IMG/VR virus record: IMGVR_UViG_3300017992_000019
Location: 1 to 64,000 of that record
Strand: one strand, 5' to 3'
Origin: a virus
Length of the DNA: 64,000 nt
Made by a program: the position numbers and the translations under genes. The first letter of the stretch is position 1, and every line of letters starts with the position of its first letter. Of this stretch, positions 11,547 through 23,562 are shown one piece after another. The notes beneath the pieces were generated by a model. The model was not told the origin of the DNA. It was given only the letters and a program-made list of their open reading frames with translations, and did no database searches.

Positions 11547-13025
11547 ATGGGTGGATCGGTTGTACCGTTGCTCGAGGGCAACCCTCGAGCTCTAGCAGAC
11601 GCGACACGCGCGCAACTCGAGGATCTCTATTCTCATTATAGAGGCATGAGCAACGAGTTGATCCGGCGTGCGGTGATCGAACGCAACCGGATCGATATCC
11701 TTGCGGTCATGATCCTCGGGTATGAAGTGCAACCGTTTCACCTTGCAATGTTGATCTATCAATTCGCACACCCCGACAATCTGCAACTTGTCTACCGCGG
11801 CGCCGGCAAGTCGACGATCTGTACCGTGGTCAAAGCGATTCACCTCCTCCTCAAGAATCCCGACTTGCGGATCCTCCTCGCGAGCAAGACAACGAGCAAC
11901 GCGAAATCGTTTCTCAAGGAGATCAAGAATCACTTTGAGGGCAACCAACGACTCGCGGATATTTTCGGCGAGTATTACGATCCGCGGCGCGTCTCGAAGT
12001 GGGACGAATTCGAGATCGAGGTGCTCCCGCGGACCAAGCCATACAAGGAGCCGTCGATCGCGTGTTGTGGTTGTGACGCGACGATCGTCTCGCGACACGT
12101 CGACGTGATCATTGCAGACGACTTGATCGACGAGGAGAACAGCCGGACGCGCTACATGCGCGAGAAAGTGCGGACGTGGTACTACCAAACCCTCGAGCCG
12201 TGTCTCGAGCCTCCCGACTCGGAGGTCGAGCACCGCGGAGAATACCACCGACTCGGAACGCGGTATCACTACGACGACCTATACGGTCACTTGATCCTCA
12301 ACGAGCTCAAGGAGCATCACCAGATCATTCCGGCGCTCGACGAGGAGGGGCGATCCCCTTGGCCGGAGAAACACACGCCGGCATGGTTTGAGAGCAAGAA
12401 AGAAAAGTCGGGCACGATCATTTTCAACGCGCAATATCAATGCGACACCGAGGCAATGAAAGGCGCGGTGTTCCAATACGACGATTGCCAGATCATTGAC
12501 GACGCCGACATACCGCGATCGCTTCGCATTTATCAGGGCACCGACCTCGCCGTGAGTGAAAAGGAGACCCGGGACAACGCGCAATTCGCGACGGTCATGA
12601 TCGGGTTGGATATCTCCGACAACATTTACGTGCTCGATTATTTCCTCGGTTACCTTTCGTTTCCAAAGCAGACGAAAAAGGCGCTTGAGTTGTATGATAC
12701 GCACGACCCGATCCGATCGGGTGTCGAGTCGAATGCGTACCAAAAAGCGTTCTACCAGCAAGTCAAGCACGAGGATCGCAACCTTCGATTTATCCCGATC
12801 TATACCGACAAGGACAAAATGACCCGCGCGCTCAAGTTGCAACCTCTATTCGAGGGCAAGCGGGTTTTTTTCCGGCGCAACATGGCGCCGTTGATCGATC
12901 AGTTCGTGCTTTTCCCGGGGTACAAACTCCGCGACGGGCTCGACGCATTCGATCTCGCATATCGCACGAGTCGCAAGAGAAAAAAAAGGAGAGCCGGCCG
13001 GTCGGAGGAGCCCGGTCTCCTTTAG
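11547..13025 (+). CDS. terL: Terminase large subunit
   Basis: YRGAGKST Walker A, IIADD Walker B, GTRYH, GTDLA nuclease Asp, VESNAYQ. Confidence 0.93.
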   Translation: MGGSVVPLLEGNPRALADATRAQLEDLYSHYRGMSNELIRRAVIERNRIDILAVMILGYEVQPFHLAMLIYQFAHPDNLQLVYRGAGKSTICTVVKAIHLLLKNPDLRILLASKTTSNAKSFLKEIKNHFEGNQRLADIFGEYYDPRRVSKWDEFEIEVLPRTKPYKEPSIACCGCDATIVSRHVDVIIADDLIDEENSRTRYMREKVRTWYYQTLEPCLEPPDSEVEHRGEYHRLGTRYHYDDLYGHLILNELKEHHQIIPALDEEGRSPWPEKHTPAWFESKKEKSGTIIFNAQYQCDTEAMKGAVFQYDDCQIIDDADIPRSLRIYQGTDLAVSEKETRDNAQFATVMIGLDISDNIYVLDYFLGYLSFPKQTKKALELYDTHDPIRSGVESNAYQKAFYQQVKHEDRNLRFIPIYTDKDKMTRALKLQPLFEGKRVFFRRNMAPLIDQFVLFPGYKLRDGLDAFDLAYRTSRKRKKRRAGRSEEPGLL

Positions 13026-13034
13026 GAGGAAACA

Positions 13035-14798
13035 ATGACCGACGCCGCGAAAAAAACACAAAAGGAATTCTCCGGCCGGAGCGCAAGGCGCAACGTCCGA
13101 GCTCTCGTCTTTCCGATTCGCAAGCAAGAGTCGATCACCGAGACCGCGAAAGGAAAGTCGAAACAACTGCCCGAGGATCCTCTCGAGAATCTGATCGAGA
13201 CGGGCGAAGTGATCGAGCCTCCTTTCGAGATGCTCACCCTTGCCATGTTATCGGAACACTCAACCGAGCTCGGGCAATGTATCGCGGCAATGGAAACCAA
13301 CATTGAAGCATTCGGGCATCGGTTGATCCCGCGGGTCAATATCGAAAAGCCCGACCTCACCGACGACGAGAAAAAGATCGTCGGGCAAGTCAAGGCCGAG
13401 AGGATCCAGCTCGACAACTTTTTTGCGTATGCCGCGTTCCCTGATTCCTTTACCAAGTTTCGACGCAAGCTCCGCGTCGATCTCGAGCACACGGGGAACG
13501 CTTATTTTGAGGTGATCCGAAACGTCGCCGGCAAGATCCAAGCATTCTCGCACGTGCCGTCGTATCAAATGCGACTCGCGAAGCTCGAGCCCGATTTCGA
13601 TCTGTACGACGTGCCAATGTTGCAGATCCAAAAAGACGGTTCGATCGCAATTGAGACGATCAAGGCGAGTCGTCGCTTTCGCCGTTTCGTACAAGGCCGG
13701 ATATTGCACCGGCGCGATCTTTCTTTTGCCGGTGGTCTTGCAGTCCGTTGGTTCAAGGAATTCGGAGACCCGAGGCACTATGATTGCGACACCGGCGAAA
13801 TGGAATCCGAAAAGAAAAAGATTCCGGTCGAGAAACGCGCAAACGAGATCGTGCACCTCAAGCTCTACTCGTCGCGTTCGCCGTATGGGATCCCCCGGTA
13901 CGTCGGCAACCTGCTTTCGATCTTCGGCGATCGTGCGTCCGAGGAGATCAACTATATTACGTTTTCAAACAACAACATCCCGTCAATGTTTCTCCTTGTG
14001 AGCAACGGACAACTCACTCAAGGGTCGATCGACAGGATCAAGGATTTCACCGAGGCGCAGATCCAGGGGCAAGACAATTTTTCAAAGTTCATTATCGTCG
14101 AGGCCGAGTCGCCGGAGGTCGAGGGAGAGGATTCCGGGCAAGTCAAGATCGACGTCAAGCCTCTCACCTCGGAACAGCACAAGGATGCTCTATTTCAAAA
14201 CTACTCGAAAAACAACCAAGACAAGATCCGGCGCGCGTTCCGGTTGCCTCCTCTCCTCGTCGGCCGGACCGACGAATACACGAGAGCAACGGTCGAGGCG
14301 TCGCGGCGCATGGCCGACGAGCAAGTGTTCGCGCCGGAGCGCGACGACTTTGACGACTTCATAAATTTGAGGATCTTTCCTGCAATGGGTTACCCGTTGC
14401 ATCGGTACAAAACCAACTCACCCAACACGACCGACAACACCGAGCTTGTCAAGATCCTCGCCGGCGCCGAGAAAACGGGCGGCATGACTCCGAGGATCGC
14501 GCGGATCATGCTCGAGGATATCCTCGGGTTTGAGCTCCCTCCTTTCCCGGAAGGTTTCCCGGTCGACCGGCCTTTCTCCGAGACAATGGCGCAGGCCGTG
14601 AAAAACAAGGCCGACCCTGCCGAGGTTGGTCAACAGGTGACCGCGCTCAAGGCGATCGAAATGCTCACCGGATCAGACCTCCCCGATCTTTTCGAGGAGG
14701 CGGCAACGGTCGATCGTCTCGAGCGTATGCGCGAGCGTCTTGAAAAGCGTTGGCGCGAGGAGGTCGAGGCGATTCCTCACGAGCACGGGGAGGAGTAG
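13035..14798 (+). CDS. Portal protein (PBSX-like)
   Basis: DLEHTGNAYFEV, NEIVHLK...YGIP, IRRAFRLPP; follows terL. Confidence 0.92.
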   Translation: MTDAAKKTQKEFSGRSARRNVRALVFPIRKQESITETAKGKSKQLPEDPLENLIETGEVIEPPFEMLTLAMLSEHSTELGQCIAAMETNIEAFGHRLIPRVNIEKPDLTDDEKKIVGQVKAERIQLDNFFAYAAFPDSFTKFRRKLRVDLEHTGNAYFEVIRNVAGKIQAFSHVPSYQMRLAKLEPDFDLYDVPMLQIQKDGSIAIETIKASRRFRRFVQGRILHRRDLSFAGGLAVRWFKEFGDPRHYDCDTGEMESEKKKIPVEKRANEIVHLKLYSSRSPYGIPRYVGNLLSIFGDRASEEINYITFSNNNIPSMFLLVSNGQLTQGSIDRIKDFTEAQIQGQDNFSKFIIVEAESPEVEGEDSGQVKIDVKPLTSEQHKDALFQNYSKNNQDKIRRAFRLPPLLVGRTDEYTRATVEASRRMADEQVFAPERDDFDDFINLRIFPAMGYPLHRYKTNSPNTTDNTELVKILAGAEKTGGMTPRIARIMLEDILGFELPPFPEGFPVDRPFSETMAQAVKNKADPAEVGQQVTALKAIEMLTGSDLPDLFEEAATVDRLERMRERLEKRWREEVEAIPHEHGEE

Positions 14799-17489
14799 TT
14801 GACAGCAGAGCTCGACAGATTGCACGACGGGCTCGCGGCCGTCGACGCGATAATCGCGAAAGCGATCGGGATCTCCGAGGTTGCACGGATCGCGCGGATC
14901 GAAACCCGACTCCGCGAGTATCTCAACGCGAAATGGAACGCTCGCAAGCGACGCGCGGTTGAGCGCGCGGGTAGCATGGCACGCGCCGGCAAGAGTGCGG
15001 CCGAGATTTCGCGAGCGGTCAAGGGGATCATGTCCGGGTGGGCCCGGGAGATCGCGCCGAGGTACAAGCGAGACTTTCGAGAAATATATAGACTCGCGCG
15101 GATCGCCGGCTGGAAAAAAGGCGGGCGCCTCACTCGTGGAACACTTGCGTACAAGGGACCGTCGCCTTTCACGGCCGAAGTCAAAAAAGGTGATCTATGG
15201 TCGATCCCGATCCAAGAGGTCACGAGCGAGGACACCTCGGTCAACACGATCCCGAGCGTGTTTCGTCGGGCGAAGTTTCGCCGAGGCCGGGTCAATGCCG
15301 ATATAGGCGGCGGCAAGTATGAGACCGCGACCCGATATCTCTCCGGCCGGGGCGTGACAAACGTCGTTTGGGATCCTTTTGCGCGCACGCCGGAGCATAA
15401 CAAGAAAGCGGCCGCGCGGATCCGCAACGGAGGGGCGGCGACTGCGACGGTCGCGAATGTGCTCAACGTGATCAAGGATCCGAAAGCACGCGACCGGGTG
15501 ATCCGACAGGCTGCAAACGCCGTCGGGAAAAACGGGGTCGCGTATTTCCAGGTATACGAGGGCGACGGATCCGGCAAGGGGGGCAAGACCGATCGCGGTT
15601 GGCAGGCAAACAAGTCTCTCTCGGCATACGTCGAATCGATCGCTCGGGTGTTCCGGTACGTGATCCCGCGCAACGGATATCTCGAGGCCCGGCAACGCAA
15701 CCCGGAGGAGATCAAGGAGCTCGAGAAAGCAACGGTGCCTCGTGCGGCCGTCGCGCTCCCGACTTTCGACGTTGTCGACACGGCCGCGGCCGGAGCTCTC
15801 GTCGATCGTCAAGTGTTCTGGATCGGTCGACATTACGACGACAACATTTCACAGTCGATCCGAGACACCGCTCGCGGATCTCTCATTGAAGCGGGCACGA
15901 ATCGGCAACGCGCCGGCGAGCTCATGCAACAACGGGTCGCGGAAAACCTCTCGCACGTCCGCACTCCGCGAGGTTGGCACGGGACGCAAGCACAGTATTT
16001 CGAGGGACTCGCGGCCAACGCCGCAACCGTCGGCCGGGTGCATGGTCAAATGCGTTCCTTTATCGATCTCGGGATCACGAAATACGAGATCCGAAATCCG
16101 AGCGACTCTCGCACGTGCCGAGTGTGCGCGCACATGGACGGAAAGGTTTTCACCGTCGCGCAAGGCGCGCAGCAAATGCAACAGGAGCTCGCGATCGCGG
16201 AGATCCCCGGACAGTCGCCGGAGGAGTATCGCGACGCGGTCAAGGCCGTGCACCCGTGGATCCAAGATTCAAACCGCGGCATGGAAAAGCTCAACAACAT
16301 CGGATCGGGGTTGCCAGGTAAGCAGGGCCCGGCCGACGCGCAGGCATACGCCGAGGCCGGTCTCTCGCTCCCTCCGTATCATTACCGGTGCCGGTGCACG
16401 GTCGACGTCTCGACCGAGGCCGGATCGTGGGAGGCGTTCGGCGCCGAGTCGGTGCCGATTCCGACACCTCCCGGGGTCAAGCCTCCGACGAAACCGTTTC
16501 CTCCTTTCAAGACGCACCCGACGAAACCGATCAACACTTTTTCGACGCAACGGTTGTCGGCCGCGCTCGGTCGCAAGATCAGGACGACAGCCGGCAACGC
16601 GAAAGCCGGGGTTGCGATCACACCGCAGGCACAGATCGCGGCACGACAGGAGCTCAACGGGTTGCTTGCCGAGTATGGTCTTGTTTCCAAAGACGCGATC
16701 CGCGGTCTCGACGACGCGATCGCAATGCTCGAAGTGCTCGAGACCGAGCACATGGTCGGCGTTTTGGGAACGCATAGCTGGCAAGGAGCGATCAGAATGC
16801 GCTCGTCGTCGATCGACGACGCGATTGATCTACTCGACGGCAAGATCAAGCCGGCGAAAGCCGGGACGATGCAAGCGATCAAGAATCAAGATCGTGTGCA
16901 TGGTATGAAAACTCTCGTGCACGAGGGAGTGCATGGTCACAGTCCGTTATTGTCCGAGGCTTATTACGGCATGGGAGTTCCGCTCGAGGAGGGTGCAGTC
17001 GAGTTGACCGCTCAACGGATCATGAAAGACAAGTTCGGGTTGCTATGGCAAGAGGTGCGAGCATCCGACTACAAGGAGTATGTCGAGGCACTTGCGGACA
17101 CGGTCGAGGGAGCGTTCAAAAAAGTGGTCGGCCGGCGCAAGGCATGGCAAGCCTACTCCGACAAGTTCGTCGAGGAGTCGAAAGTCATTCCATACAGGAA
17201 AAGCAACGTCGGCCGGCACCTCGCGTCGGATGCAACGATCAGAATGCAAAGCACGTCTCATTTCATATCAACGCATAAACAGTTTCTCGACGACTTCGCG
17301 GCCGCGGTTGAGGTGCCGTCGGAGCTCACGGCCGGGTTGAGCAAGCAACAGATCAAGGAGCTCACCGAAAAGATCCGCAAGGAGGTTCGGGAGAGGTCGG
17401 AGAAAAAATTAGTCACCGCGGTACGCAAGCGCGCGAAGCGGCGAGGCGACCCGGTGCCGAAAGCAAGATACATGCGATTTTCGGGGTGA
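14799..17489 (+). CDS. MuF/SPP1 gp7-like head morphogenesis protein with an inserted SAM-methyltransferase-like domain and a C-terminal zincin domain
   Basis: TCRVC...PPYHYRCRC MuF motifs; DIGGGKY/WDPF/NVLNVI insert; HEGVH...EEGAVE. Confidence 0.85.
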   Translation: MTAELDRLHDGLAAVDAIIAKAIGISEVARIARIETRLREYLNAKWNARKRRAVERAGSMARAGKSAAEISRAVKGIMSGWAREIAPRYKRDFREIYRLARIAGWKKGGRLTRGTLAYKGPSPFTAEVKKGDLWSIPIQEVTSEDTSVNTIPSVFRRAKFRRGRVNADIGGGKYETATRYLSGRGVTNVVWDPFARTPEHNKKAAARIRNGGAATATVANVLNVIKDPKARDRVIRQAANAVGKNGVAYFQVYEGDGSGKGGKTDRGWQANKSLSAYVESIARVFRYVIPRNGYLEARQRNPEEIKELEKATVPRAAVALPTFDVVDTAAAGALVDRQVFWIGRHYDDNISQSIRDTARGSLIEAGTNRQRAGELMQQRVAENLSHVRTPRGWHGTQAQYFEGLAANAATVGRVHGQMRSFIDLGITKYEIRNPSDSRTCRVCAHMDGKVFTVAQGAQQMQQELAIAEIPGQSPEEYRDAVKAVHPWIQDSNRGMEKLNNIGSGLPGKQGPADAQAYAEAGLSLPPYHYRCRCTVDVSTEAGSWEAFGAESVPIPTPPGVKPPTKPFPPFKTHPTKPINTFSTQRLSAALGRKIRTTAGNAKAGVAITPQAQIAARQELNGLLAEYGLVSKDAIRGLDDAIAMLEVLETEHMVGVLGTHSWQGAIRMRSSSIDDAIDLLDGKIKPAKAGTMQAIKNQDRVHGMKTLVHEGVHGHSPLLSEAYYGMGVPLEEGAVELTAQRIMKDKFGLLWQEVRASDYKEYVEALADTVEGAFKKVVGRRKAWQAYSDKFVEESKVIPYRKSNVGRHLASDATIRMQSTSHFISTHKQFLDDFAAAVEVPSELTAGLSKQQIKELTEKIRKEVRERSEKKLVTAVRKRAKRRGDPVPKARYMRFSG

Positions 17490-17708: not shown

Positions 17709-20700
17709 ATGGGAAAGCAACGACGACAAGTTGACCCGACGCCGGCGCCGCAACCGGGGCCGAGGTCTCGAAAGCGGCGAGCTCGCGTTCCGGGCGAGCG
17801 AGGTGTCGCTCACCCGGTGATCAAGTCGATCGACACGCCGGCGCTTGACGACGGCGGCAAGCTCGCGCCGGCGAAAGGCAAGGGAGGAACACTCCTCGTC
17901 GAGGATCAGGAGGAGGTCACTTTCGCGCCGGTGATTTTCAAGGGCGAGTTTGAGGTCGTGAAACAGATCCGCAACGACGCCTCGAAAATCTTTGTATGCT
18001 TTCGATTGCCCGAGGCGATCCGCACAAAGCTCTCGGAGCTTTCAACCGCACTCGTGAAAGATCGCGCGGATCCCGAGGACGTCGATCACGTGACCTTGTT
18101 GTATGTGCCGAGCGACAAGGAGATCACCGAGGAGGTCGCAAGCAAGGCCGCGGCGGCGGCGAGAGACGCGCTCAAGAAATTCGAGCTCGGGCCGGTCAAG
18201 GCCCGGTTGCAGGGTTGGGGATATTTCGACGGCGCCGAGAAAGGCGAGGAGCGGAGCACCGCGCTCGTTGCTCTCCTTGACGCTCCCGGGTTGGCCGAGG
18301 TGCACCTCGTGCTCAAGGCCGCGCTCACCGAGGCCGGTCTCCCGGCCGACGAGCAGACACACGGGTTTGTTCCGCACGCGACGCTCGCATATCTCGAGGC
18401 CGGCGAGCGGATCGAGAATCTCCCGGAGCTCGGCGACGAGATCGTGATCAACGAGCTTGAGCTCGTGCACTCTGAGACCTACCGGATCCCGATCGGAGGC
18501 AAGGTCGAGAAATCGGATCCGCGTTCCGACACGCCGTGGGATCCCTCTCACCTCGAGGACCGAGCGAGCGAGCAACTTGTCGCTCGACATTGGGATTTGC
18601 ACCTCGAGTTTCGGCAACCCGGCCGGCCGACGAGTGCGCTTGTCAACGAGCACGCGCGGATCGTCGACGAGCTTTTCGGCCGCGGTGTGAAACATCCGGC
18701 ACCGCCCGACAACGGGCTCGACGATCTCTCGGAGGATTTCGAGGAGTATGAGAGCAAGCAACCCGACTGGACACGACCCATGCGACCAAAGATCCTCGAC
18801 GACCTCGAGAAACGGGTCGATCCGAATCCGGGAGTGTTTGCCTCGCCGGGAGGCAAGGCGCGGATCGCCGAGGCGCTTGTCAAGATGCTCCCGTCGCATT
18901 CAACCTATGTCGAGCCTTTTGCCGGAGGCGCCGCGGTGCTTTTCAAAAAGGAGCCGTGCGACGTCGAGGTGCTCAACGATCTCGACGAGTCGATCGTGCA
19001 AGCGTACAAAGACGTCAAGGCGATCACGAACGCCGAGCTCGAGCAACTCCGGGGCAAGGATTGGGTCGGCAAGCGTGCGACGTTCCGGCGACTGCACAAA
19101 TCGCAACCGAGCAACCGGGTCGAGCGGTTGTATAAATTCTTGTACGTCTCGTTTTTCTCCTACGGGTCGACGCGCGGCAAGGGATACAACCCGGTTCGCG
19201 ACGGCCGCAACCCGGTTGACACGATACTCGGCCGGATCGAGCGCGGCCGCAAGCGACTCAAGGGAGTGCGTCTCATGTGCGGCGACTACGCCGCGACGAT
19301 CAAAGCGCACGACAGCAAGGGAACGGTTTTCTTTCTCGATCCGCCGTATGCCGGTTATTGTGCCGACCTCGGCGAGGGCAAGTTCGACGAGGAGAAATTC
19401 GTCGAGACGCTCAAGAATCTCAAGGGCAAGTTTGTCTTGACCTACGGCGCGAGATCGAAACTCATGTCGAAACTTCGCGCGGCCGGATTCAAGATCAAGC
19501 GGATCGCGATCCCCCGCACCGGTCTCGGTCTCACGTCGCGCGACGAGAAAGGCGAACGCCGCACCGATCTCACGACGCTCGTTGTCTCGAATTTCGAGAC
19601 GACAAAAAAGGCCGCGGCCGGAGAGGAATTCCTCGTCGACGTGACCGACGGCGAGATCGTCGAGCTCGAGAAACGACTCGACCCGGAGGCGCCGCGGCGA
19701 TTCACGGTTCACCGACACTGGCGCGGCGGCGAGTCGCACGTTGACTTGAGGATCGAAAAGGGCAACCTCCTCGAGGGTTGGTCACTCGAGCAGAATCCGA
19801 CCAACGCGGAGCCCGTCGAGACACTCGCGGCCGCGCAGGAAATCGGCGGCGATTGGTTCCAACGGGAGGAGACCGCGGCCGTGCGAAAGGACTTGCACCC
19901 GCTCAAGTGGCTTGACGTCGAGGGCGTGACCAAGCGAGGCGAGGGCGGGCAGGATCCGATCGGCGGCAACTCGGAATTTCCGGGTGTGTTTCATATTGTC
20001 GAGAAAGGTCTCGCCGAAATCGGAGCGGTCAAGCCGTGGTTGCGCGAGTTTTGGTTGCACGGCGAGCTCGGCCGGTGCCGGTTGATTCTCAAGCAAGTCG
20101 CTTTTCCGATCGTGAAAGCACGACACTCGAGGTCGCGTTGCATGTTTGAAGGGTGCAAGCGAGCTCCCGAGGTCGACGTGTTGTGGGCCGACGGCCGCGG
20201 GCGCGCGTGGTTTTGCGAGGAGCACCTCGAGGCATGGAAACAGGGATTCAAGGATCGCGGTGTCGAGGGATATCTCGAGATCGTCGGTGAGAAAAAAGTC
20301 ACGACCGGAGAGGTGCCGGAGAAATGGGCCGACGTGCACAAGGGCGTCGACGTGGTCGTCGTGACCAAGGAGATCCCACCGAGCGAAATTGGATCGAGGT
20401 GGATCGCAACCCGGCCGGAGAATCCGATGCCGTATGTGCTCGGGCTTGACGCGGTCGAAAAGGGTTGGATCCCTCCGACCGGGATCTCCGCGCTCCCGGC
20501 CGGCGTCCGAAAACAGATCCCGGAGGCGTTCCGATATTGGGAAAAGGAGAACGCTCTCGAGACTCGCGATCGACTTGTCGAGGAGATCCAGGACGGCAAG
20601 ATCAAGGTCAACCTCACGAAACGGATCGACATGGTCGAGGCGCAACTCGAGGTTCCGATCCAGAAAGTCGACACCGACAAGCGACTCGTGACCGGCGTTG

Positions 20701-21014
20701 TGCTCGAGCCCGACGAGGTCGACGCACAAGGCGACACGATCGACGAGGAGGCGATCGAGCGAGCGGCGCATAATTTCCTCGCGAGGTACAACAAGGAAAC
20801 CGAGATCGGCAACCTACACAAGATTTTCGGGCAAAACGGTCTCGAGCTCGTCGAGAGTTGGATCGCGCCGGTCGATATGAAGCTCGGCAAGGGAAAAGTC
20901 AAACGCGGAACGTGGCTTATGACAATTCGCGTGCTCAACGATCACACGTGGCAACAGGTCAAGACAGGCGAGATCACGGGTCTCTCGATCGGCGGCACCG
21001 CGTCGGTTATATGA
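17709..21014 (+). CDS. Polyvalent protein: 2H phosphoesterase, His-rich domain, Dam-type N6-adenine MTase, LigD 3'-phosphoesterase-like domain, Zn finger, XkdF-like prohead protease
   Basis: HVTL/HATL; YVEPFAGG, NDLD, LDPPY; VHRHWRG..SHVDLRIE; CMFEGC..FCEEH; GVVLEPD..DAQGD, LVESWIAP, GTWLM, GLSIGG. Confidence 0.88.
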   Translation: MGKQRRQVDPTPAPQPGPRSRKRRARVPGERGVAHPVIKSIDTPALDDGGKLAPAKGKGGTLLVEDQEEVTFAPVIFKGEFEVVKQIRNDASKIFVCFRLPEAIRTKLSELSTALVKDRADPEDVDHVTLLYVPSDKEITEEVASKAAAAARDALKKFELGPVKARLQGWGYFDGAEKGEERSTALVALLDAPGLAEVHLVLKAALTEAGLPADEQTHGFVPHATLAYLEAGERIENLPELGDEIVINELELVHSETYRIPIGGKVEKSDPRSDTPWDPSHLEDRASEQLVARHWDLHLEFRQPGRPTSALVNEHARIVDELFGRGVKHPAPPDNGLDDLSEDFEEYESKQPDWTRPMRPKILDDLEKRVDPNPGVFASPGGKARIAEALVKMLPSHSTYVEPFAGGAAVLFKKEPCDVEVLNDLDESIVQAYKDVKAITNAELEQLRGKDWVGKRATFRRLHKSQPSNRVERLYKFLYVSFFSYGSTRGKGYNPVRDGRNPVDTILGRIERGRKRLKGVRLMCGDYAATIKAHDSKGTVFFLDPPYAGYCADLGEGKFDEEKFVETLKNLKGKFVLTYGARSKLMSKLRAAGFKIKRIAIPRTGLGLTSRDEKGERRTDLTTLVVSNFETTKKAAAGEEFLVDVTDGEIVELEKRLDPEAPRRFTVHRHWRGGESHVDLRIEKGNLLEGWSLEQNPTNAEPVETLAAAQEIGGDWFQREETAAVRKDLHPLKWLDVEGVTKRGEGGQDPIGGNSEFPGVFHIVEKGLAEIGAVKPWLREFWLHGELGRCRLILKQVAFPIVKARHSRSRCMFEGCKRAPEVDVLWADGRGRAWFCEEHLEAWKQGFKDRGVEGYLEIVGEKKVTTGEVPEKWADVHKGVDVVVVTKEIPPSEIGSRWIATRPENPMPYVLGLDAVEKGWIPPTGISALPAGVRKQIPEAFRYWEKENALETRDRLVEEIQDGKIKVNLTKRIDMVEAQLEVPIQKVDTDKRLVTGVVLEPDEVDAQGDTIDEEAIERAAHNFLARYNKETEIGNLHKIFGQNGLELVESWIAPVDMKLGKGKVKRGTWLMTIRVLNDHTWQQVKTGEITGLSIGGTASVI

Positions 21015-21241
21015 AAGGTCTTGACATGGGGCGTTCGACCTTGGCACAATTGCAGCAATCGAAAGGCGTTCGGCAGTCGGAGATCATGGCGAAATACGAC
21101 GAGAGCATTCAGGCGCGGAAATTTTACGGACAGGTGATCCTCACCTATGAGGACGGCAACCTTGTCAACGTGAAAGAAACGCGCAACCTGAAACCCGATC
21201 AACTCGTGCGGGTGCTCGGCGACAACAACGTCGACGTTTGA
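21011..21241 (+). CDS. Small DUF2292/YezD-like protein
   Basis: ATGA overlap with the polyprotein stop; FYGQVILTYEDGNLVNVKETRNLK pattern. Confidence 0.6.
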   Translation: MKGLDMGRSTLAQLQQSKGVRQSEIMAKYDESIQARKFYGQVILTYEDGNLVNVKETRNLKPDQLVRVLGDNNVDV

Positions 21242-21258
21242 GGTTTTGAAAAGCTAGA

Positions 21259-21312
21259 GGGTATCGGATCAACCGAGCCCCGATGTGTGCTCCGCGCATG
21301 TCGGGGCTTTTT
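21259..21312 (+). terminator. Intrinsic terminator with an overlapping alternative hairpin (attenuator-like)
   Basis: AGCCCCGA...TCGGGGCT+TTTT (21276-21312); competing GGG-TA-TCGG-ATCAA-CCGA-G-CCC (21259-21280). Confidence 0.7.
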
Positions 21313-21328
21313 GCGTTTTGAGGTTGCC

Positions 21329-22273
21329 ATGTCCGAAAAAGCAAAGCGACGGTTGCTTGAGGTTGAAGTTGACGAGGTTTCGCTCGTAGATCGAGCGGCC
21401 AATTTGAGACGGTTCCTAGTAATCAAACGACTGGAGGAAAAAGAAATGGGAGCTTTCAAAAAAGACGAGATCAAGAAAGGCGAGGAGATGACCGAGGAGG
21501 AAAAGAAGAAAGCCGAGGAGGCCAAGAAAGCCGAGGAGGCCAAGAAAGCCGAAGCGGTCAAGAAATCCGAGGAGGAGATCAAGGAGATCCTCAAGGCCAT
21601 GAACCCGGCCGCGGTTGCCGGGATGCTCCGCGGTCTCAAGGGCGCACCCAAGGAGGCGGTCGACGCTCTGATCCAGTGGGCCGAAGGTCAGGCGAAAAAG
21701 GCCGAGACCAAGAAGTCGGCCGACGGTGACGGCGACGATCCTCCCGCGGATCCTCCCGCGGATCCCCCGGCCGATCCCGAGCCGGCCGATCCCCCCGCGG
21801 ATCCCCCGGCCGATCCCGAGCCGGCCGAAGTCAAGAAAGCGGCCGTCGAGATCCACGACGACGGCACCGTGATCGTCAACGGCGCTCCGGTGGTCAAGGG
21901 CAAGACGTTCACCCCCTCGCGCAACAGCGCGATCAAGGAGGTGATCGGCAAGCTGATCAAGCTGGCCGGCGACGTCGGTGATTCCGAGACCCTCAAAGCG
22001 ATCGCCGACATGGTCAAGGAGCTCCCCGACGACGCGAATCCGGGACAAGGAGTCAAGGCCGTCGGCACGGCCGGAGGCGTCGCGCTCAAGAAAGCCGAGG
22101 AGGAGATCGAGAAACTTCGCAAGGAGCTCGACGAGGCCAAAGCGGAACGCGCCGACGTGACCAAACGACTCGACGAGATCGAAAAGACCCGCGAGCCGAG
22201 CAAGTCGGTCGACGGCGACGGCGGCACCGACAAAGAAACCATGAAAAAGGAGTTTTGGGACGGCGTGATCTAG
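21329..22273 (+). CDS. Capsid scaffolding protein with an N-terminal protease-like strand and C-terminal FWDGVI
   Basis: Directly before the capsid gene; E/K-rich coiled coils; EEAKKA and DPPA repeats; DEVSLVDRAAN; internal GGAGG plus ATG at 21446. Confidence 0.8.
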   Translation: MSEKAKRRLLEVEVDEVSLVDRAANLRRFLVIKRLEEKEMGAFKKDEIKKGEEMTEEEKKKAEEAKKAEEAKKAEAVKKSEEEIKEILKAMNPAAVAGMLRGLKGAPKEAVDALIQWAEGQAKKAETKKSADGDGDDPPADPPADPPADPEPADPPADPPADPEPAEVKKAAVEIHDDGTVIVNGAPVVKGKTFTPSRNSAIKEVIGKLIKLAGDVGDSETLKAIADMVKELPDDANPGQGVKAVGTAGGVALKKAEEEIEKLRKELDEAKAERADVTKRLDEIEKTREPSKSVDGDGGTDKETMKKEFWDGVI

Positions 22274-22353: not shown

Positions 22354-23562
22354 ATGCCCGAAAGAGTCTCAAACGAGGAGTTGGTGCAGAAAGCCCTGAT
22401 CGAGACCGGTGCGCTCTCGGCGGCCGGCAAACTCAACCCGGCGCAAGCCGACAAATTCATCGACTATGTTGTCGATGAGAGCGTGTTGAAAAACAACGCG
22501 CGCGTCGAGCGGTTCCGCAACGAGACGCTCGAGATCGACAAGATCGGGATCGGCCGGCGCGTCGCGTTGCCGAAAGCCGAAGCGGCCGACCCCGGTCTCC
22601 GGCGCGGGATCGAGACGAGCAAGATCGTGCTCGAGCCCCGGACCGTCGCGGTGCCTTTCGAGGTCTCCGACGAGTTCCTCGAAATCAATCTCGAGGGTCA
22701 GGCACTAGCCGACAAGATTGTGCAGCTTATGGCGCGCCAGTTTTCAAACGACCTCGAGGAGTTGTATTTGTTCGCCGACTCCCTCGGGCCGTCGATCGTC
22801 GAGAGCGACTATCGCTCGGGCGGATCGGCAACTCAGCACGTCAAAGACGAGTATCTCGGTCTCCTGCCAAGTCCGGGCGGGTGGTTGCGTCGTGCCGACT
22901 CCGGTCACGTCGTGGATCACGAGGGCGCAAACATCGGTCTGTCGGTGTTCGGCAAGATGCTCCGCAACATGCCGCAGAAATTCAGGCGCAACAAGGCCGC
23001 GCTCCGGTTTTTCATTGCGCCGGATCTTTCTCAGTTGTACGTCGAGAAACTGAGCACCCGGGCAACCGGTCTCGGCGACGCCTCGGCGGCGGGCGCCGAT
23101 CACCGGCCGTATGGTGTGCAGTTGGTCGAGGTGCCGTTGTTCTCGTTCCTGCCCAAGGTCGTCGAGCACGTGACCTTGACCAACGAGGATCCGATCGCGC
23201 TCCGGTACAAGCCGGTTCAGAATGAGGTCGTGACTCCGTCCGATCTCGCCGGCACCCCGACGACTCCGTATGTCGAGGGCACCGACTACAACATGGATTA
23301 TGCCAACGGGACGATCGCTCGCGACGCCGGAGGCTCGCTCCCGACGCCGGTCACCGTCAAGATCACTTACGAGGCGAATCCTCAACTGTTGCTCACGCAT
23401 CAGTCGAATTTCGTTCTCGGCATCGGGCGGGATATCAAGATCGAAAAGGATCGCGATATCTACCGCGGTGTCTGGTCTTACATGGTCACCGCAAAGGTTG
23501 CCGCGCAGTTCGAGGAAACCGATGCGTTGGTCAAGGGCGTCAACATCGGCCAGGGCGTGTAA
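22354..23562 (+). CDS. Major capsid protein (HK97 fold, XkdG/P2-like) with an extra beta-rich insertion
   Basis: GKLNPAQADKFI, IDKIGIGRR, MLRNMPQKFR, NFVLGIGRDIKIE; strong RBS. Confidence 0.9.
   Translation: MPERVSNEELVQKALIETGALSAAGKLNPAQADKFIDYVVDESVLKNNARVERFRNETLEIDKIGIGRRVALPKAEAADPGLRRGIETSKIVLEPRTVAVPFEVSDEFLEINLEGQALADKIVQLMARQFSNDLEELYLFADSLGPSIVESDYRSGGSATQHVKDEYLGLLPSPGGWLRRADSGHVVDHEGANIGLSVFGKMLRNMPQKFRRNKAALRFFIAPDLSQLYVEKLSTRATGLGDASAAGADHRPYGVQLVEVPLFSFLPKVVEHVTLTNEDPIALRYKPVQNEVVTPSDLAGTPTTPYVEGTDYNMDYANGTIARDAGGSLPTPVTVKITYEANPQLLLTHQSNFVLGIGRDIKIEKDRDIYRGVWSYMVTAKVAAQFEETDALVKGVNIGQGV

What the first reader, a model, noticed from the sequence alone, without database searches (positions are those of the whole stretch)
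17709..21014. Protease-terminated polyprotein whose enzyme domains are delimited by [VIL]-x-K sites
Seen, in order: VVK|Q (17955), 2H phosphoesterase (HVTL 18087, HATL 18375), VEK|S (18504), His-rich domain, LEK|R (18804), Dam-type MTase (DPPY 19338), LEK|R (19665), LigD phosphoesterase-like domain, IVK|A (20109), Zn finger, VHK|G, then IQK|V (20658) and the protease. The same motif occurs at the capsid N-terminus (LVQK|A) and repeatedly in the scaffold (VKK|S, VKK|A, VVK|G, LKK|A). Established: 2H enzymes include the anti-CBASS nuclease Acb1, Dam-type MTases protect against restriction, and LigD PE domains heal 3' ends. Inference: a counter-defence and repair kit packaged through the protease and cut into separate enzymes during head maturation.
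Basis: partly seen in the sequence, partly recalled or inferred. Interest (0 to 1): 0.8.

Follow-up and report, generated by a model that had tools for sequence, protein, structure and literature searches.

The report
Enzyme cargo fused to phage head protease
An uncultured 95-kb phage makes its head-maturation protease as the last domain of a 1101-residue protein carrying a DNA methylase and two nucleic-acid-end phosphoesterases; a conserved hydrophobic-x-lysine motif at every domain joint is probably where the protease cuts, but no cut has been measured.

Summary
ORF 17709-21014 is real and intact. In order it encodes a 2H phosphoesterase, a small helical module, a Dam-like methyltransferase, a LigD-PE-like domain, a zinc ribbon, a small conserved module and an XkdF-type prohead protease.

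[VIL]-x-K is common (28 copies), yet it lies in or within 3 residues of all six internal low-confidence linkers of the AlphaFold model (P = 0.005). In 26 diverged homologues with shuffled modules it is enriched at module junctions (107 of 156 windows, 54 expected, z = 8.7). Controls such as h-x-R, h-x-E and small-x-K are flat. The same motif is conserved at the capsid protein's N-terminus and after the scaffold's N-terminal strand motif.

Corrections:
- IQK986 lies in the protease's first strand. The linker site is LTK971|R.
- The 2H domain resembles LigT/CPDase; no Acb1 structure was among the listed matches.
- The N-terminus carries a tag resembling the capsid protein's N-terminus.

Cleavage, packaging and delivery are all inferred. 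The class is already described: polyvalent phage proteins ending in an assemblin-like peptidase (Iyer 2017). This scan has noted like polyproteins and Lys motifs on other genomes. The junction code, the capsid-like tag and the ligase/PE cargo seem undescribed.

The parts
17709..21014 (+). Whole polyprotein gene (1101 aa, P0001)
   Evidence: RBS GAGGTG. A colinear 79%-identical homologue, P0006, and 32 further homologues.
17709..17825 (+). Basic disordered leader, residues 1-39, ending in VIK39|S
   Evidence: pLDDT about 30. Arg/Lys-rich leaders also occur in homologues.
17826..17963 (+). Capsid-N-terminus-like tag (K|S-I..P-A-L...G-G-K-L-x-P-A), residues 40-85, ending in VVK85|Q
   Evidence: The motif is present near the N-terminus of 16 of the 34 family proteins. 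An HMM built from it finds capsid N-termini as the best non-self hits, E 3.6e-6 to 1e-2, among 1607 ORFs.
17964..18512 (+). 2H phosphoesterase module, residues 86-268 (HVTL 127, HATL 223), ending in VEK268|S
   Evidence: Pfam PF13563, E 2e-10. Foldseek to 5h7e, 1iuh and 5ldm. pLDDT above 90.
18513..18812 (+). Conserved helical module of unknown function, residues 269-368, ending in LEK368|R
   Evidence: Shared with about 18 homologues. It lies in a separate gene in L002 and L003. Helices 279-340. No Pfam or Atlas match.
18813..19673 (+). Dam-like D12 N6-adenine methyltransferase, residues 369-655 (DPPY 544), ending in LEK655|R
   Evidence: Pfam PF02086, E 2e-17. Foldseek to E. coli Dam, DpnM and T4 Dam.
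19674..20117 (+). LigD 3'-phosphoesterase-like module, residues 656-803, ending in IVK803|A
   Evidence: Pfam LigD_N is weak. Foldseek to 3p43, 3p4h and 3n9b. The H-x6-H-x-D-x-R motif is conserved.
20118..20369 (+). Zinc-ribbon module, residues 804-887, with VHK878|G and VTK887|E
   Evidence: Cys/His ligands conserved. Linker 869-895 has pLDDT below 50.
20370..20621 (+). Small conserved module 'F' (I/L-P-P-S-E ...), residues 888-971, ending in LTK971|R
   Evidence: Present in about 28 homologues. An h-x-K lies 1-4 residues before LPPSE in 22 of 24 cases.
20622..21014 (+). XkdF-type prohead serine protease, residues 972-1101 (His1037, Ser1093). The ORF ends 8 residues after the Ser.
   Evidence: Pfam PF14550, 112.6 bits. 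Invariant H and S. Best fold match is T4 gp21: Z 7.7, rmsd 3.9, 112 aligned; the next hit has Z 4.3.
21329..21427 (+). Scaffold N-terminal strand motif (E-V-S-L-V-D-R-A-A-N ... F-L-V-I-K33|R)
   Evidence: Conserved in all 20 scaffolds aligned. V20, D21, A24 and K33 are invariant, and conservation stops after K33.
21329..22273 (+). Scaffolding protein
   Evidence: Position, composition and PHROG matches.
22354..22392 (+). Putative capsid propeptide, residues 1-13, ending in LVQK13|A
   Evidence: N-x-E-L-[VI]-x-K|A or a near variant (always h-x-K) is seen in all 28 readable related capsid N-termini, preceded by leaders of differing length. It is also present in Lactococcus phage 56701.
22354..23562 (+). 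Major capsid protein
   Evidence: phrog_1623, E 1e-67. Homologues are annotated as major capsid protein.

Best explanation
This is a phage 'polyvalent' head protein. Nucleic-acid-modifying and end-healing enzymes (2H phosphoesterase, Dam-like methyltransferase, LigD-PE-like domain) and small modules are translated as one chain. The chain ends in the phage's only XkdF-type prohead serine protease.

Shown:
- the domains and their order;
- the gene's place between the MuF gene and the scaffold and capsid genes;
- free shuffling of the modules among relatives;
- a conserved hydrophobic-x-Lys motif at each module's N-terminal border, at the capsid N-terminus and after the scaffold's N-terminal strand motif;
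- an N-terminal tag that resembles the capsid protein's N-terminus.

Inferred:
- The chain is built into the procapsid. It would be held by the protease docking on the scaffold's N-terminal peptide, by the capsid-like N-terminal tag, or by both.
- The protease then cuts after the Lys of h-x-K. This would trim capsid and scaffold and free about seven pieces. At about 110 Da per residue these are roughly 20, 11, 32, 16, 9, 9 and 14 kDa.
- The freed enzymes leave the capsid with the DNA and act early in the next cell, in methylation and repair of damaged DNA or RNA ends. Phage P1 Dar proteins and T4 IPI* behave this way.
For: Domains.

Head-module context: terminase, portal, MuF, polyprotein, scaffold and capsid lie in order. 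It is the only XkdF match in a 94%-complete, 94.9-kb virus record.

Module shuffling: 33 homologues of 626-1890 aa all end in XkdF and carry different sets and orders of modules. At least 221 longer XkdF fusions exist. Their cargo includes D12 and C5 MTases, ATP DNA ligase, 2H, UDG and InPase.

Linkers: BLAST breakpoints cluster at residues 81-90, 261-290, 341-380, 631-670, 791-810, 881-900 and 961-990. These agree with the AlphaFold low-confidence segments.

Motif statistics:
- 6 of 6 internal linkers hold a motif or lie within 3 residues of one, P = 0.005.
- Family junction windows: 169 of 199 hold a motif against 122 expected, z = 7.5.
- After dropping near-duplicates: 107 of 156 fixed 18-residue windows against 54 expected, z = 8.7. 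h-x-R, h-x-E and [AGST]-x-K are not enriched. Bare Lys ('..K') is mildly enriched in these fixed windows (139 against 121, z = 3.6) but not in the wider windows (z = 0.8-2.0).

Fixed distance to unrelated anchors:
- 0 residues before QADPY in 16 of 26 PE modules;
- 1-4 residues before LPPSE in 22 of 24;
- 1-8 residues before W-x-S-P-G-G-K in 20 of 22;
- mostly 9-17 residues before V-P-I-x-K-V-D (range 3-17), in 27 of 36.

Capsid and scaffold sites are conserved. They are also present in the distant Lactococcus phage 56701.

Protease: the fold matches T4 gp21, Z 7.7. gp21-type proteases cut at three-residue motifs ending in a charged residue: A-x-E in SPN3US, and after Glu in T4 and phiKZ (PMC5694885).

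Binding of the protease domain to the scaffold N-terminal peptide has weak support only. The score is 0.45 and the best control 0.07. That mark was reached by 58 of 80 solved complexes and 2 of 110 mismatched pairs. At 0.60 or under, it was reached by only 7 of those 80 and by both mismatches that passed. The runs agree in at least 56% of contacts. The partner's pLDDT is at least 46.
Against: - No cleavage, packaging or ejection has been measured for this protein. I found no published cleavage specificity for any XkdF-type protease.
- The motif is short and common. 18 of its 28 copies lie inside folded domains.
- Within one module type, conservation follows from homology. The independent evidence is the recurrence across about nine unrelated module types.
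- Some sites may belong to the domains themselves. K-R/Q-x-D-P...P-E before the PE module resembles, from my memory, the K-R-D-F..T-P-E-P leader of bacterial LigD PE. Some MTase sites (L-S-K-P-F) sit where Dam has F-L-K-W.
- The PE-like active site is incomplete. The equivalent of LigD His84 is His in only 9 of 32 sequences, and Tyr88 is replaced by Trp.
- The window's phage has no ligase, so a 'repair kit' is incomplete here.
- The complex prediction is weak.
Confidence: 0.55

Rival explanations
1. The protein is packaged but stays whole, or is cut only next to the protease. It would be a single large multi-domain internal head protein, like P1 DarB or N4 vRNAP. The h-x-K motifs would be N-terminal caps of the domains or linker habits, not cut sites.
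For: - Iyer et al. note that some polyvalent proteins, such as N4 vRNAP, are packaged unprocessed.
- The PE-module and some MTase-module lysines may be ancestral parts of those domains (LigD leader recalled from memory).
- Most motif copies are inside folds.
Against: - The same tripeptide type recurs at the borders of about nine unrelated modules, and at the capsid and scaffold N-termini.
- Bare Lys is at most mildly enriched at junctions (z = 0.8-3.6), and small-x-Lys not at all.
- Several linkers hold two sites a few residues apart (VHK878 and VTK887). Phages whose protease cuts propeptides into small pieces show this pattern (PMC5694885).
Confidence: 0.22
2. The enzymes are not cargo for the next host. 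They would act in the producing cell or at the assembling head. Fusion to the protease would only place a methylase and end-healing enzymes where DNA is packaged, for example to methylate GATC or heal ends as DNA enters. They would then be degraded or left behind.
For: - GATC is extremely frequent in this genome: 1076 in 64 kb, against 230 expected from composition.
- The methylase resembles GATC-specific Dam enzymes.
- A methylase injected with already packaged DNA gives protection late.
Against: - Known packaged anti-restriction proteins, P1 DarB among them, do carry methylase domains and act on incoming DNA (my own knowledge; P1 Dar is discussed).
- Conserved cut sites between modules, and tags like the capsid N-terminus, fit proteins kept inside the shell.
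- Nothing in the sequence speaks for action in the producing cell alone.
Confidence: 0.15
3. The motif pattern is chance in a Lys-rich, Val/Ile/Leu-rich protein.
For: - 28 copies in 1101 residues.
- In the single protein, the Fisher test on low-pLDDT residues gives only P = 0.03-0.04.
Against: - 6 of 6 linkers, P = 0.005.
- Family-wide z = 6.8-8.7, with none of 1000 shuffles reaching the observed count and flat controls.
- Fixed distances to anchors.
Confidence: 0.03

Closest known systems
Phage-type polyvalent proteins with a C-terminal assemblin-like peptidase (Iyer, Burroughs, Anand, de Souza, Aravind 2017, PMC5512222)
   Same: - Many enzymatic domains in one chain, encoded beside MuF, portal and head genes.
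- The 2H domain is listed there for phage-type proteins.
[quoted passage not shown]
- InPase, a domain treated in that paper, is found fused to XkdF in relatives.
   Different: - That paper names no cut-site motif, no linker code, no DNA ligase and no LigD-PE cargo (0 occurrences of 'DNA ligase', 'LigD' and 'linker').
- The capsid-like N-terminal tag is not described there.
- The strand motif held by the scaffold is not described there.
T4 internal proteins and Alt with the capsid targeting sequence, cut by prohead protease gp21; phiKZ and SPN3US ejection proteins cut by gp175 and gp245
   Same: - Cargo is loaded into the prohead and cut at a three-residue motif ending in a charged residue.
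- The same motif occurs on capsid and scaffold proteins.
- The protease fold is related (Z 7.7 to gp21; motifs).
   Different: - P1 would be Lys, not Glu.
- The cargo is one chain covalently joined to the protease, not separate tagged proteins.
- The protease is of the XkdF family, with no sequence match to gp21.
Phage P1 Dar system (DarB methylase/helicase, DdrB, DarA)
   Same: - Head-packaged proteins that include a DNA methylase domain.
- Some are processed.
- They protect incoming DNA from restriction (and my own knowledge).
   Different: - The P1 proteins are separate genes.
- They are loaded through DarA and Hdf, not fused to the head protease.
- No sequence relation was tested here.
Canonical XkdF protease-scaffold fusions (PHROG 3017; e.g. 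Lactococcus phage 56701 gene DS56701_35)
   Same: - The same protease domain (41% identity).
- The same strand motif ending in h-x-K (F-F-L-T-K|S).
- The same capsid N-terminus (N-T-E-L-L-Q-K|Q).
   Different: - There the order is strand motif, protease, scaffold, all in one chain and without cargo.
- Here the protease ends a cargo chain, and the strand motif stays on the separate scaffold.
HK97 gp4 protease and its capsid-targeting C-terminal tail (Duda, Oh, Hendrix 2013; listed as ref. 30 in PMC10002752)
   Same: A prohead serine protease is carried into the shell by a short targeting element. Foreign proteins fused to that element are encapsidated (my own knowledge).
   Different: Here the protease has no C-terminal tail, since the ORF stops 8 residues after the Ser. 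Any targeting element must lie elsewhere.

Membership tests
Phage-type polyvalent proteins (Iyer 2017) | Two to 15 distinct domains in one polypeptide, with architectures that vary among relatives | tested here: met
   Seven modules. Shuffled sets occur in 33 homologues.
Phage-type polyvalent proteins (Iyer 2017) | Encoded among late/head genes (MuF, portal), with the assemblin-like peptidase at the C-terminus | tested here: met
   Gene order. XkdF spans 984-1100 of 1101 residues.
Phage-type polyvalent proteins (Iyer 2017) | Packaged in the virion and delivered to the host | not testable with these tools
   Needs virion proteomics.
XkdF / Peptidase_S78_2 prohead serine protease | Profile match over the curated cut-off | tested here: met
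   112.6 bits against a cut-off of 24; 117.8 bits in the genome search.
XkdF / Peptidase_S78_2 prohead serine protease | Conserved catalytic His and Ser | tested here: met
   H1037 and S1093 are invariant in 34 and in 24 sequences.
XkdF / Peptidase_S78_2 prohead serine protease | Assemblin/gp21-like fold | tested here: met
   VIA-align: T4 gp21 (5jbl) Z 7.7, rmsd 3.9, 112 aligned; next hit Z 4.3; VZV protease Z 3.5. Foldseek alone was not significant. A Z under 8 is moderate evidence.
XkdF / Peptidase_S78_2 prohead serine protease | Proteolytic activity and its specificity | not testable with these tools
   No published specificity was found.
2H phosphoesterase superfamily | Two H-x-T/S motifs, profile match and fold | tested here: met
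   HVTL 127 and HATL 223. PF13563, 41.3 bits against 27. Foldseek to 5h7e, E 1e-7.
Acb1-type anti-CBASS 2H nucleases | Specific likeness to Acb1 | tested here: inconclusive
   The listed Foldseek matches for this domain are CPDase, LigT and AKAP18. No Acb1 entry is listed. PHROG matches are 'RNA ligase' families.
D12 (Dam-type) N6-adenine DNA methyltransferase | Profile match, DPPY catalytic motif, Dam fold | tested here: met
   PF02086, 64.3 bits against 22. DPPY at 544. Dam, E 6e-12. GATC specificity was not tested.
LigD 3'-phosphoesterase (PE) domain | Profile match over the curated cut-off | tested here: not met
   PF13298, 18.3 bits against 31.1. PDB sequence search gives E 0.38.
LigD 3'-phosphoesterase (PE) domain | PE fold and metal-binding H..H-x-D-x-R | tested here: met
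   3p43 and 3p4h, E 6e-5 to 1e-4, TM 0.72. H670 in 32 sequences, H677 in 29, D679 in 29, R681 in 31, of 33. There is one extra residue between the two His.
LigD 3'-phosphoesterase (PE) domain | Equivalents of His84 and Tyr88 (essential in Pseudomonas LigD; from my own knowledge) | tested here: not met
   Position 730 is His in 9 and Glu in 14 of 32 sequences. Position 734 is Trp in all 32. It is therefore PE-like, and its activity is uncertain.

The most novel reading that the evidence does not exclude
Tailed phages of this lineage would use a plug-and-play cargo grammar:
- Each enzyme module carries its own h-x-Lys cut site at its N-terminal border.
- The chain is addressed to the procapsid by a tag that copies the capsid protein's own N-terminus.
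- The protease that ends the chain is incomplete. It becomes active only when the scaffold's N-terminal strand motif docks on it, so cutting starts only inside the shell.

This would be a true polyprotein strategy in a dsDNA phage, one that loads DNA-modification and repair enzymes for delivery with the genome.
Probability: 0.25. Interest if true: 0.75.

Novelty: new variant of a known kind. Interest (0 to 1): 0.55.

Why it matters
If the cuts are real, a short readable code (h-x-Lys at module borders plus a capsid-like tag) would predict which proteins an uncultured phage carries in its head and delivers with its DNA.

The fusions are numerous. At least 221 proteins of more than 245 residues end in this protease. 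Their cargo includes N6A and C5 methylases, ATP DNA ligase, 2H, UDG and pyrophosphatase. This points to a large, unstudied set of virion-borne DNA-protection and repair enzymes.

The code would also offer a natural design for loading chosen proteins into capsids.

The general idea is already in the literature as a prediction, so the gain is a testable mechanism rather than a new principle.

Tried and rejected
- Sequence search of the protease domain against PDB found nothing meaningful; the best hit was ribosomal S6 at E 0.16.
- Foldseek of the protease model had no match at E <= 0.001, and gp21 ranked only 33rd. The wider VIA search was needed.
- The Atlas search of the helical module 269-368 gave no usable hit.
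- Literature searches for 'XkdF', 'PF14550', prohead-protease polyproteins, ul36 capsid processing and the ICP1 protease gave no cleavage specificity for this protease family.
- 'MTase-XkdF fusions in cultured phages' was rejected. The 'DNA methyltransferase' labels on XkdF genes of Pseudomonas phage Roomu-2 (154 aa) and Lactococcus phage 56701 (349 aa, protease plus scaffold) are annotation carry-over. Those genes have no methylase domain.
- A ligase elsewhere in this phage was sought and not found.
- Read-through or frameshift joining protease and scaffold was considered. In relatives the two genes abut or overlap as separate ORFs, and here a small extra gene lies between them. I treat them as separate proteins.
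- No isolated phage is a close relative; all tblastn matches are under 60% identity.


Full report
WHAT IS THERE

The window is the first 64 kb of a 94.9-kb IMG/VR virus record rated 94% complete. Genes run on the + strand in head-module order:
- terminase, 11547-13025;
- portal, 13035-14798;
- a MuF-like protein, 14799-17489;
- a 70-aa gene;
- the ORF in question, 17709-21014;
- a small gene;
- scaffold, from 21329;
- major capsid protein, 22354-23562;
- tail genes.

The ORF is 1101 codons without a stop, and GAGGTG lies 6 nt before its ATG. The database's own gene call for it (P0005, 986 aa) starts inside the 2H domain and is probably too short. A 79%-identical colinear homologue and the conserved N-terminal motifs support the long form.

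DOMAINS

- Pfam finds a 2H phosphoesterase (105-238, E 2e-10), a D12 methyltransferase (380-580, E 2e-17) and an XkdF protease (984-1100, E 1.6e-32). LigD_N is weak (675-747, 18.3 bits against a 31.1 cut-off).
- An AlphaFold model built on 34 homologues has mean pLDDT 75 and shows separate folded blocks.
- Foldseek matches the blocks to E. coli Dam (E 6e-12), to CPDase/LigT-type 2H enzymes (E 1e-7 to 4e-6) and to archaeal and Pseudomonas LigD PE domains (E 6e-5 to 1e-4, TM 0.72).
- The PE-like module keeps H670, H677, D679 and R681. The place of LigD His84 is variable, and Tyr88 is Trp. It is therefore PE-like, with uncertain activity.
- C811, C816, C836 and C/H839 form a conserved zinc ribbon.
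- Residues 269-368 are a conserved helical module without known relatives. It is not notably rich in His.
- The protease has invariant His1037 and Ser1093. Folded alone, it matches T4 gp21 best: Z 7.7, rmsd 3.9, 112 residues aligned, with the next chain at Z 4.3. That is moderate evidence.

RELATIVES

- 33 proteins of 626-1890 aa share modules with this one, and all end in the protease.
- The modules occur in different sets and orders. Many relatives add an ATP-dependent DNA ligase between the methylase and the PE-like module.
- In 49 related virus contigs, found through the capsid protein, the protease ORF ranges from 142 aa (stand-alone) to 1766 aa. Other cargo there includes class-I methylases, ligase and an AAA ATPase.
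- A wider search gives at least 221 XkdF fusions longer than 245 aa. They add C5 methylases, UDG and InPase to the cargo list.
- This is the class that Iyer et al. (2017) called polyvalent proteins. They noted that an assemblin-like peptidase, when present, is always C-terminal and probably processes the protein. They name no cut site, no ligase and no LigD-PE cargo.

IS THE MOTIF MORE THAN CHANCE?

[VIL]-x-K occurs 28 times, so listing sites is not evidence by itself. Four tests follow.

(a) Linkers in this protein.
- The model's pLDDT<50 segments are 1-84, 265-275, 354-369, 635-658, 799-807, 869-895 and 974-982.
- BLAST breakpoints against homologues cluster at the same places.
- All six internal linkers hold a motif or lie within 3 residues of one: VEK268, LEK368, LEK655, IVK803, VHK878 with VTK887, and LTK971 (3 residues before 974-982).
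- Random placement of as many sites (30 when Met is allowed at the hydrophobic position, as in this test) hits a mean of 2.7 linkers, P = 0.005. h-x-R hits 0, h-x-D 2, small-x-K 2, h-x-E 3 and the reversed motif 5.

(b) Junctions across the family.
- 169 of 199 junction windows hold the motif, against 122 expected, z = 7.5.
- Without seven near-duplicates, and with fixed 18-residue windows, the count is 107 of 156 against 54 expected, z = 8.7. None of 1000 shuffles reached it.
- h-x-R, h-x-E and small-x-K are flat or depleted.
- Bare Lys is mildly enriched in the fixed windows (139 against 121, z = 3.6) and not in the wider ones.

(c) Fixed distance before unrelated anchors.
- Directly before QADPY of the PE module in 16 of 26 cases.
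- 1-4 residues before LPPSE in 22 of 24.
- 1-8 residues before the methylase's W-x-S-P-G-G-K in 20 of 22.
- Mostly 9-17 residues before the protease's V-P-I-x-K-V-D (27 of 36 cases have an upstream motif, at 3-17 residues).
- The motif is also seen in linkers of fusions with C5 methylase, UDG and InPase.

(d) Comparison with other proteins. Motif density exceeds the compositional expectation about 1.6-fold in the polyprotein, scaffold and capsid, but not in most tail proteins.

Within one module type the conservation follows from homology. The independent signal is the recurrence at about nine unrelated borders.

CAPSID AND SCAFFOLD

- All 28 readable related capsid N-termini carry N-x-E-L-[VI]-x-K|A or a near variant (always h-x-K), after leaders of differing length.
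- All 20 aligned scaffolds begin with E-V-S-L-V-D-R-P-A-N...F-L-V-[IV]-K|R. The Lys is invariant, and conservation ends right after it.
- Both motifs recur in Lactococcus phage 56701, a cultured phage with a 41%-identical XkdF protease fused to its scaffold.

- IQK986 lies in the first strand of the protease (982-988), and that strand is conserved even in stand-alone proteases. The linker site is LTK971|R, which aligns with V-E-K and V-A-K in homologues.
- VHK878 is followed by a second conserved site, VTK887|E.
- Nothing links the 2H domain to Acb1 in particular.

NEW POINTS

1. After a basic leader, residues 35-57 (P-V-I-K|S-I-D-T-P-A-L-D-D-G-G-K-L-A-P-A) resemble the capsid protein's N-terminus (L-V-Q-K|A-L-I-E-T-G-A-L-S-A-A-G-K-L-N-P-A).
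   - 16 of the 34 family proteins have this tag near the N-terminus.
   - An HMM made from the polyprotein tags alone finds capsid N-termini as its best non-self hits, E 3.6e-6 to 1e-2, among 1607 ORFs.
   - In L002 a separate 349-aa gene carries a like tag plus the helical module, without a protease.
   - The tag may be an address label or an extended recognition site.

2. The protease ORF always stops a few residues after the catalytic Ser, and the strand motif sits on the next gene.
   - In canonical fusions the motif precedes the protease in the same chain.
   - A complex prediction of protease domain with scaffold residues 1-50 gave weak support only: score 0.45, best control 0.07.
   - That mark was reached by 58 of 80 solved complexes and 2 of 110 mismatches. 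At 0.60 or under, it was reached by only 7 of the 80 and by both mismatches.
   - The runs agree in at least 56% of contacts, and the partner's pLDDT is at least 46.

MECHANISM

Shown: domain content, head-gene context, modularity, the junction motif, the shared motif on capsid and scaffold, the capsid-like tag, and a gp21-like protease with intact His and Ser.

Inferred:
- co-assembly into the procapsid;
- cutting after Lys, as a charge-swapped parallel to the L/I-x-E of T4 and the A/S/G-x-E of SPN3US and phiKZ;
- retention of the pieces in the capsid and delivery with the DNA;
- an early role in methylation and end-healing.

I put cutting at these sites at about 0.55. The rivals are a packaged but uncut multi-domain protein (0.22), enzymes that act only in the producing cell or at packaging (0.15), and chance (0.03).

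NOVELTY

The kind is known as a computational prediction (Iyer 2017), and by analogy from T4, phiKZ/SPN3US and P1. I did not find the following described: the Lys junction code, the capsid-like tag, the strand motif held by the scaffold, and the PE/ligase cargo.

Earlier notes of this scan report like XkdF polyproteins and hydrophobic-x-Lys sites on other genomes. They are unchecked AI notes and are not counted as evidence here.

Noticed in passing
window 1-64000: TTAA is completely absent: 0 copies, against 106 expected from base composition and 21 from a second-order Markov model. CTAG (25 copies) and GTAC (88 copies) are also scarce.
   Followed up: partly
window 1-64000: GATC occurs 1076 times, one per 59 bp, against 230 expected from composition and 731 from the Markov model. 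TCGA occurs 947 times. The phage's Dam-like methylase sits in the head polyprotein.
   Followed up: partly
window 14799-17489: The MuF-like protein (896 aa) has a weak class-I methyltransferase match at residues 168-257 and an H-E-G-V-H-G-H zincin motif near the C-terminus. h-x-K sites at 128-130 (V-K-K|G) and 308-310 (L-E-K|A) flank the methylase-like part. It looks like a second polyvalent head protein.
   Followed up: partly
window 20622-21427: The protease ORF ends 8 residues after the catalytic Ser. The E-V-S-L-V-D-R-A-A-N strand motif, which in canonical XkdF proteins lies in the same chain, starts the scaffold instead. This holds in every related locus with a readable scaffold that was examined; in more distant relatives the motif sits in a separate small gene.
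   Followed up: partly
window 21011-21241: A small gene of about 76 codons lies between protease and scaffold. A like 69-aa gene sits at the same place in L006 (6446-6655) but is absent in most relatives.
   Followed up: no
   Followed up: no
L052:3162-3626 (Pseudomonas phage Roomu-2), L051:3378-4427 (Lactococcus phage 56701): GenBank and PHROG label these XkdF protease genes 'DNA methyltransferase' although they have no methylase domain. The label probably spread from fused members of phrog_1530.
   Followed up: yes
P0009 (homologue, 1582 aa): One homologous polyprotein is filed in NCBI under a Candidatus Thorarchaeota MAG (SMTZ-45). This could be a viral contig binned with an archaeon, or a hint at the host range.
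   Followed up: no
window about 21770-21890 (scaffold residues about 148-186): The scaffold holds a run of D-P-P-A / D-P-E-P-A repeats between its Lys/Glu-rich parts.
   Followed up: no
window 17709-18053: The public gene call for this protein (P0005, 986 aa) starts at residue 116, inside the 2H domain. The longer ORF with the RBS and the conserved N-terminal tag is more likely correct.
   Followed up: yes
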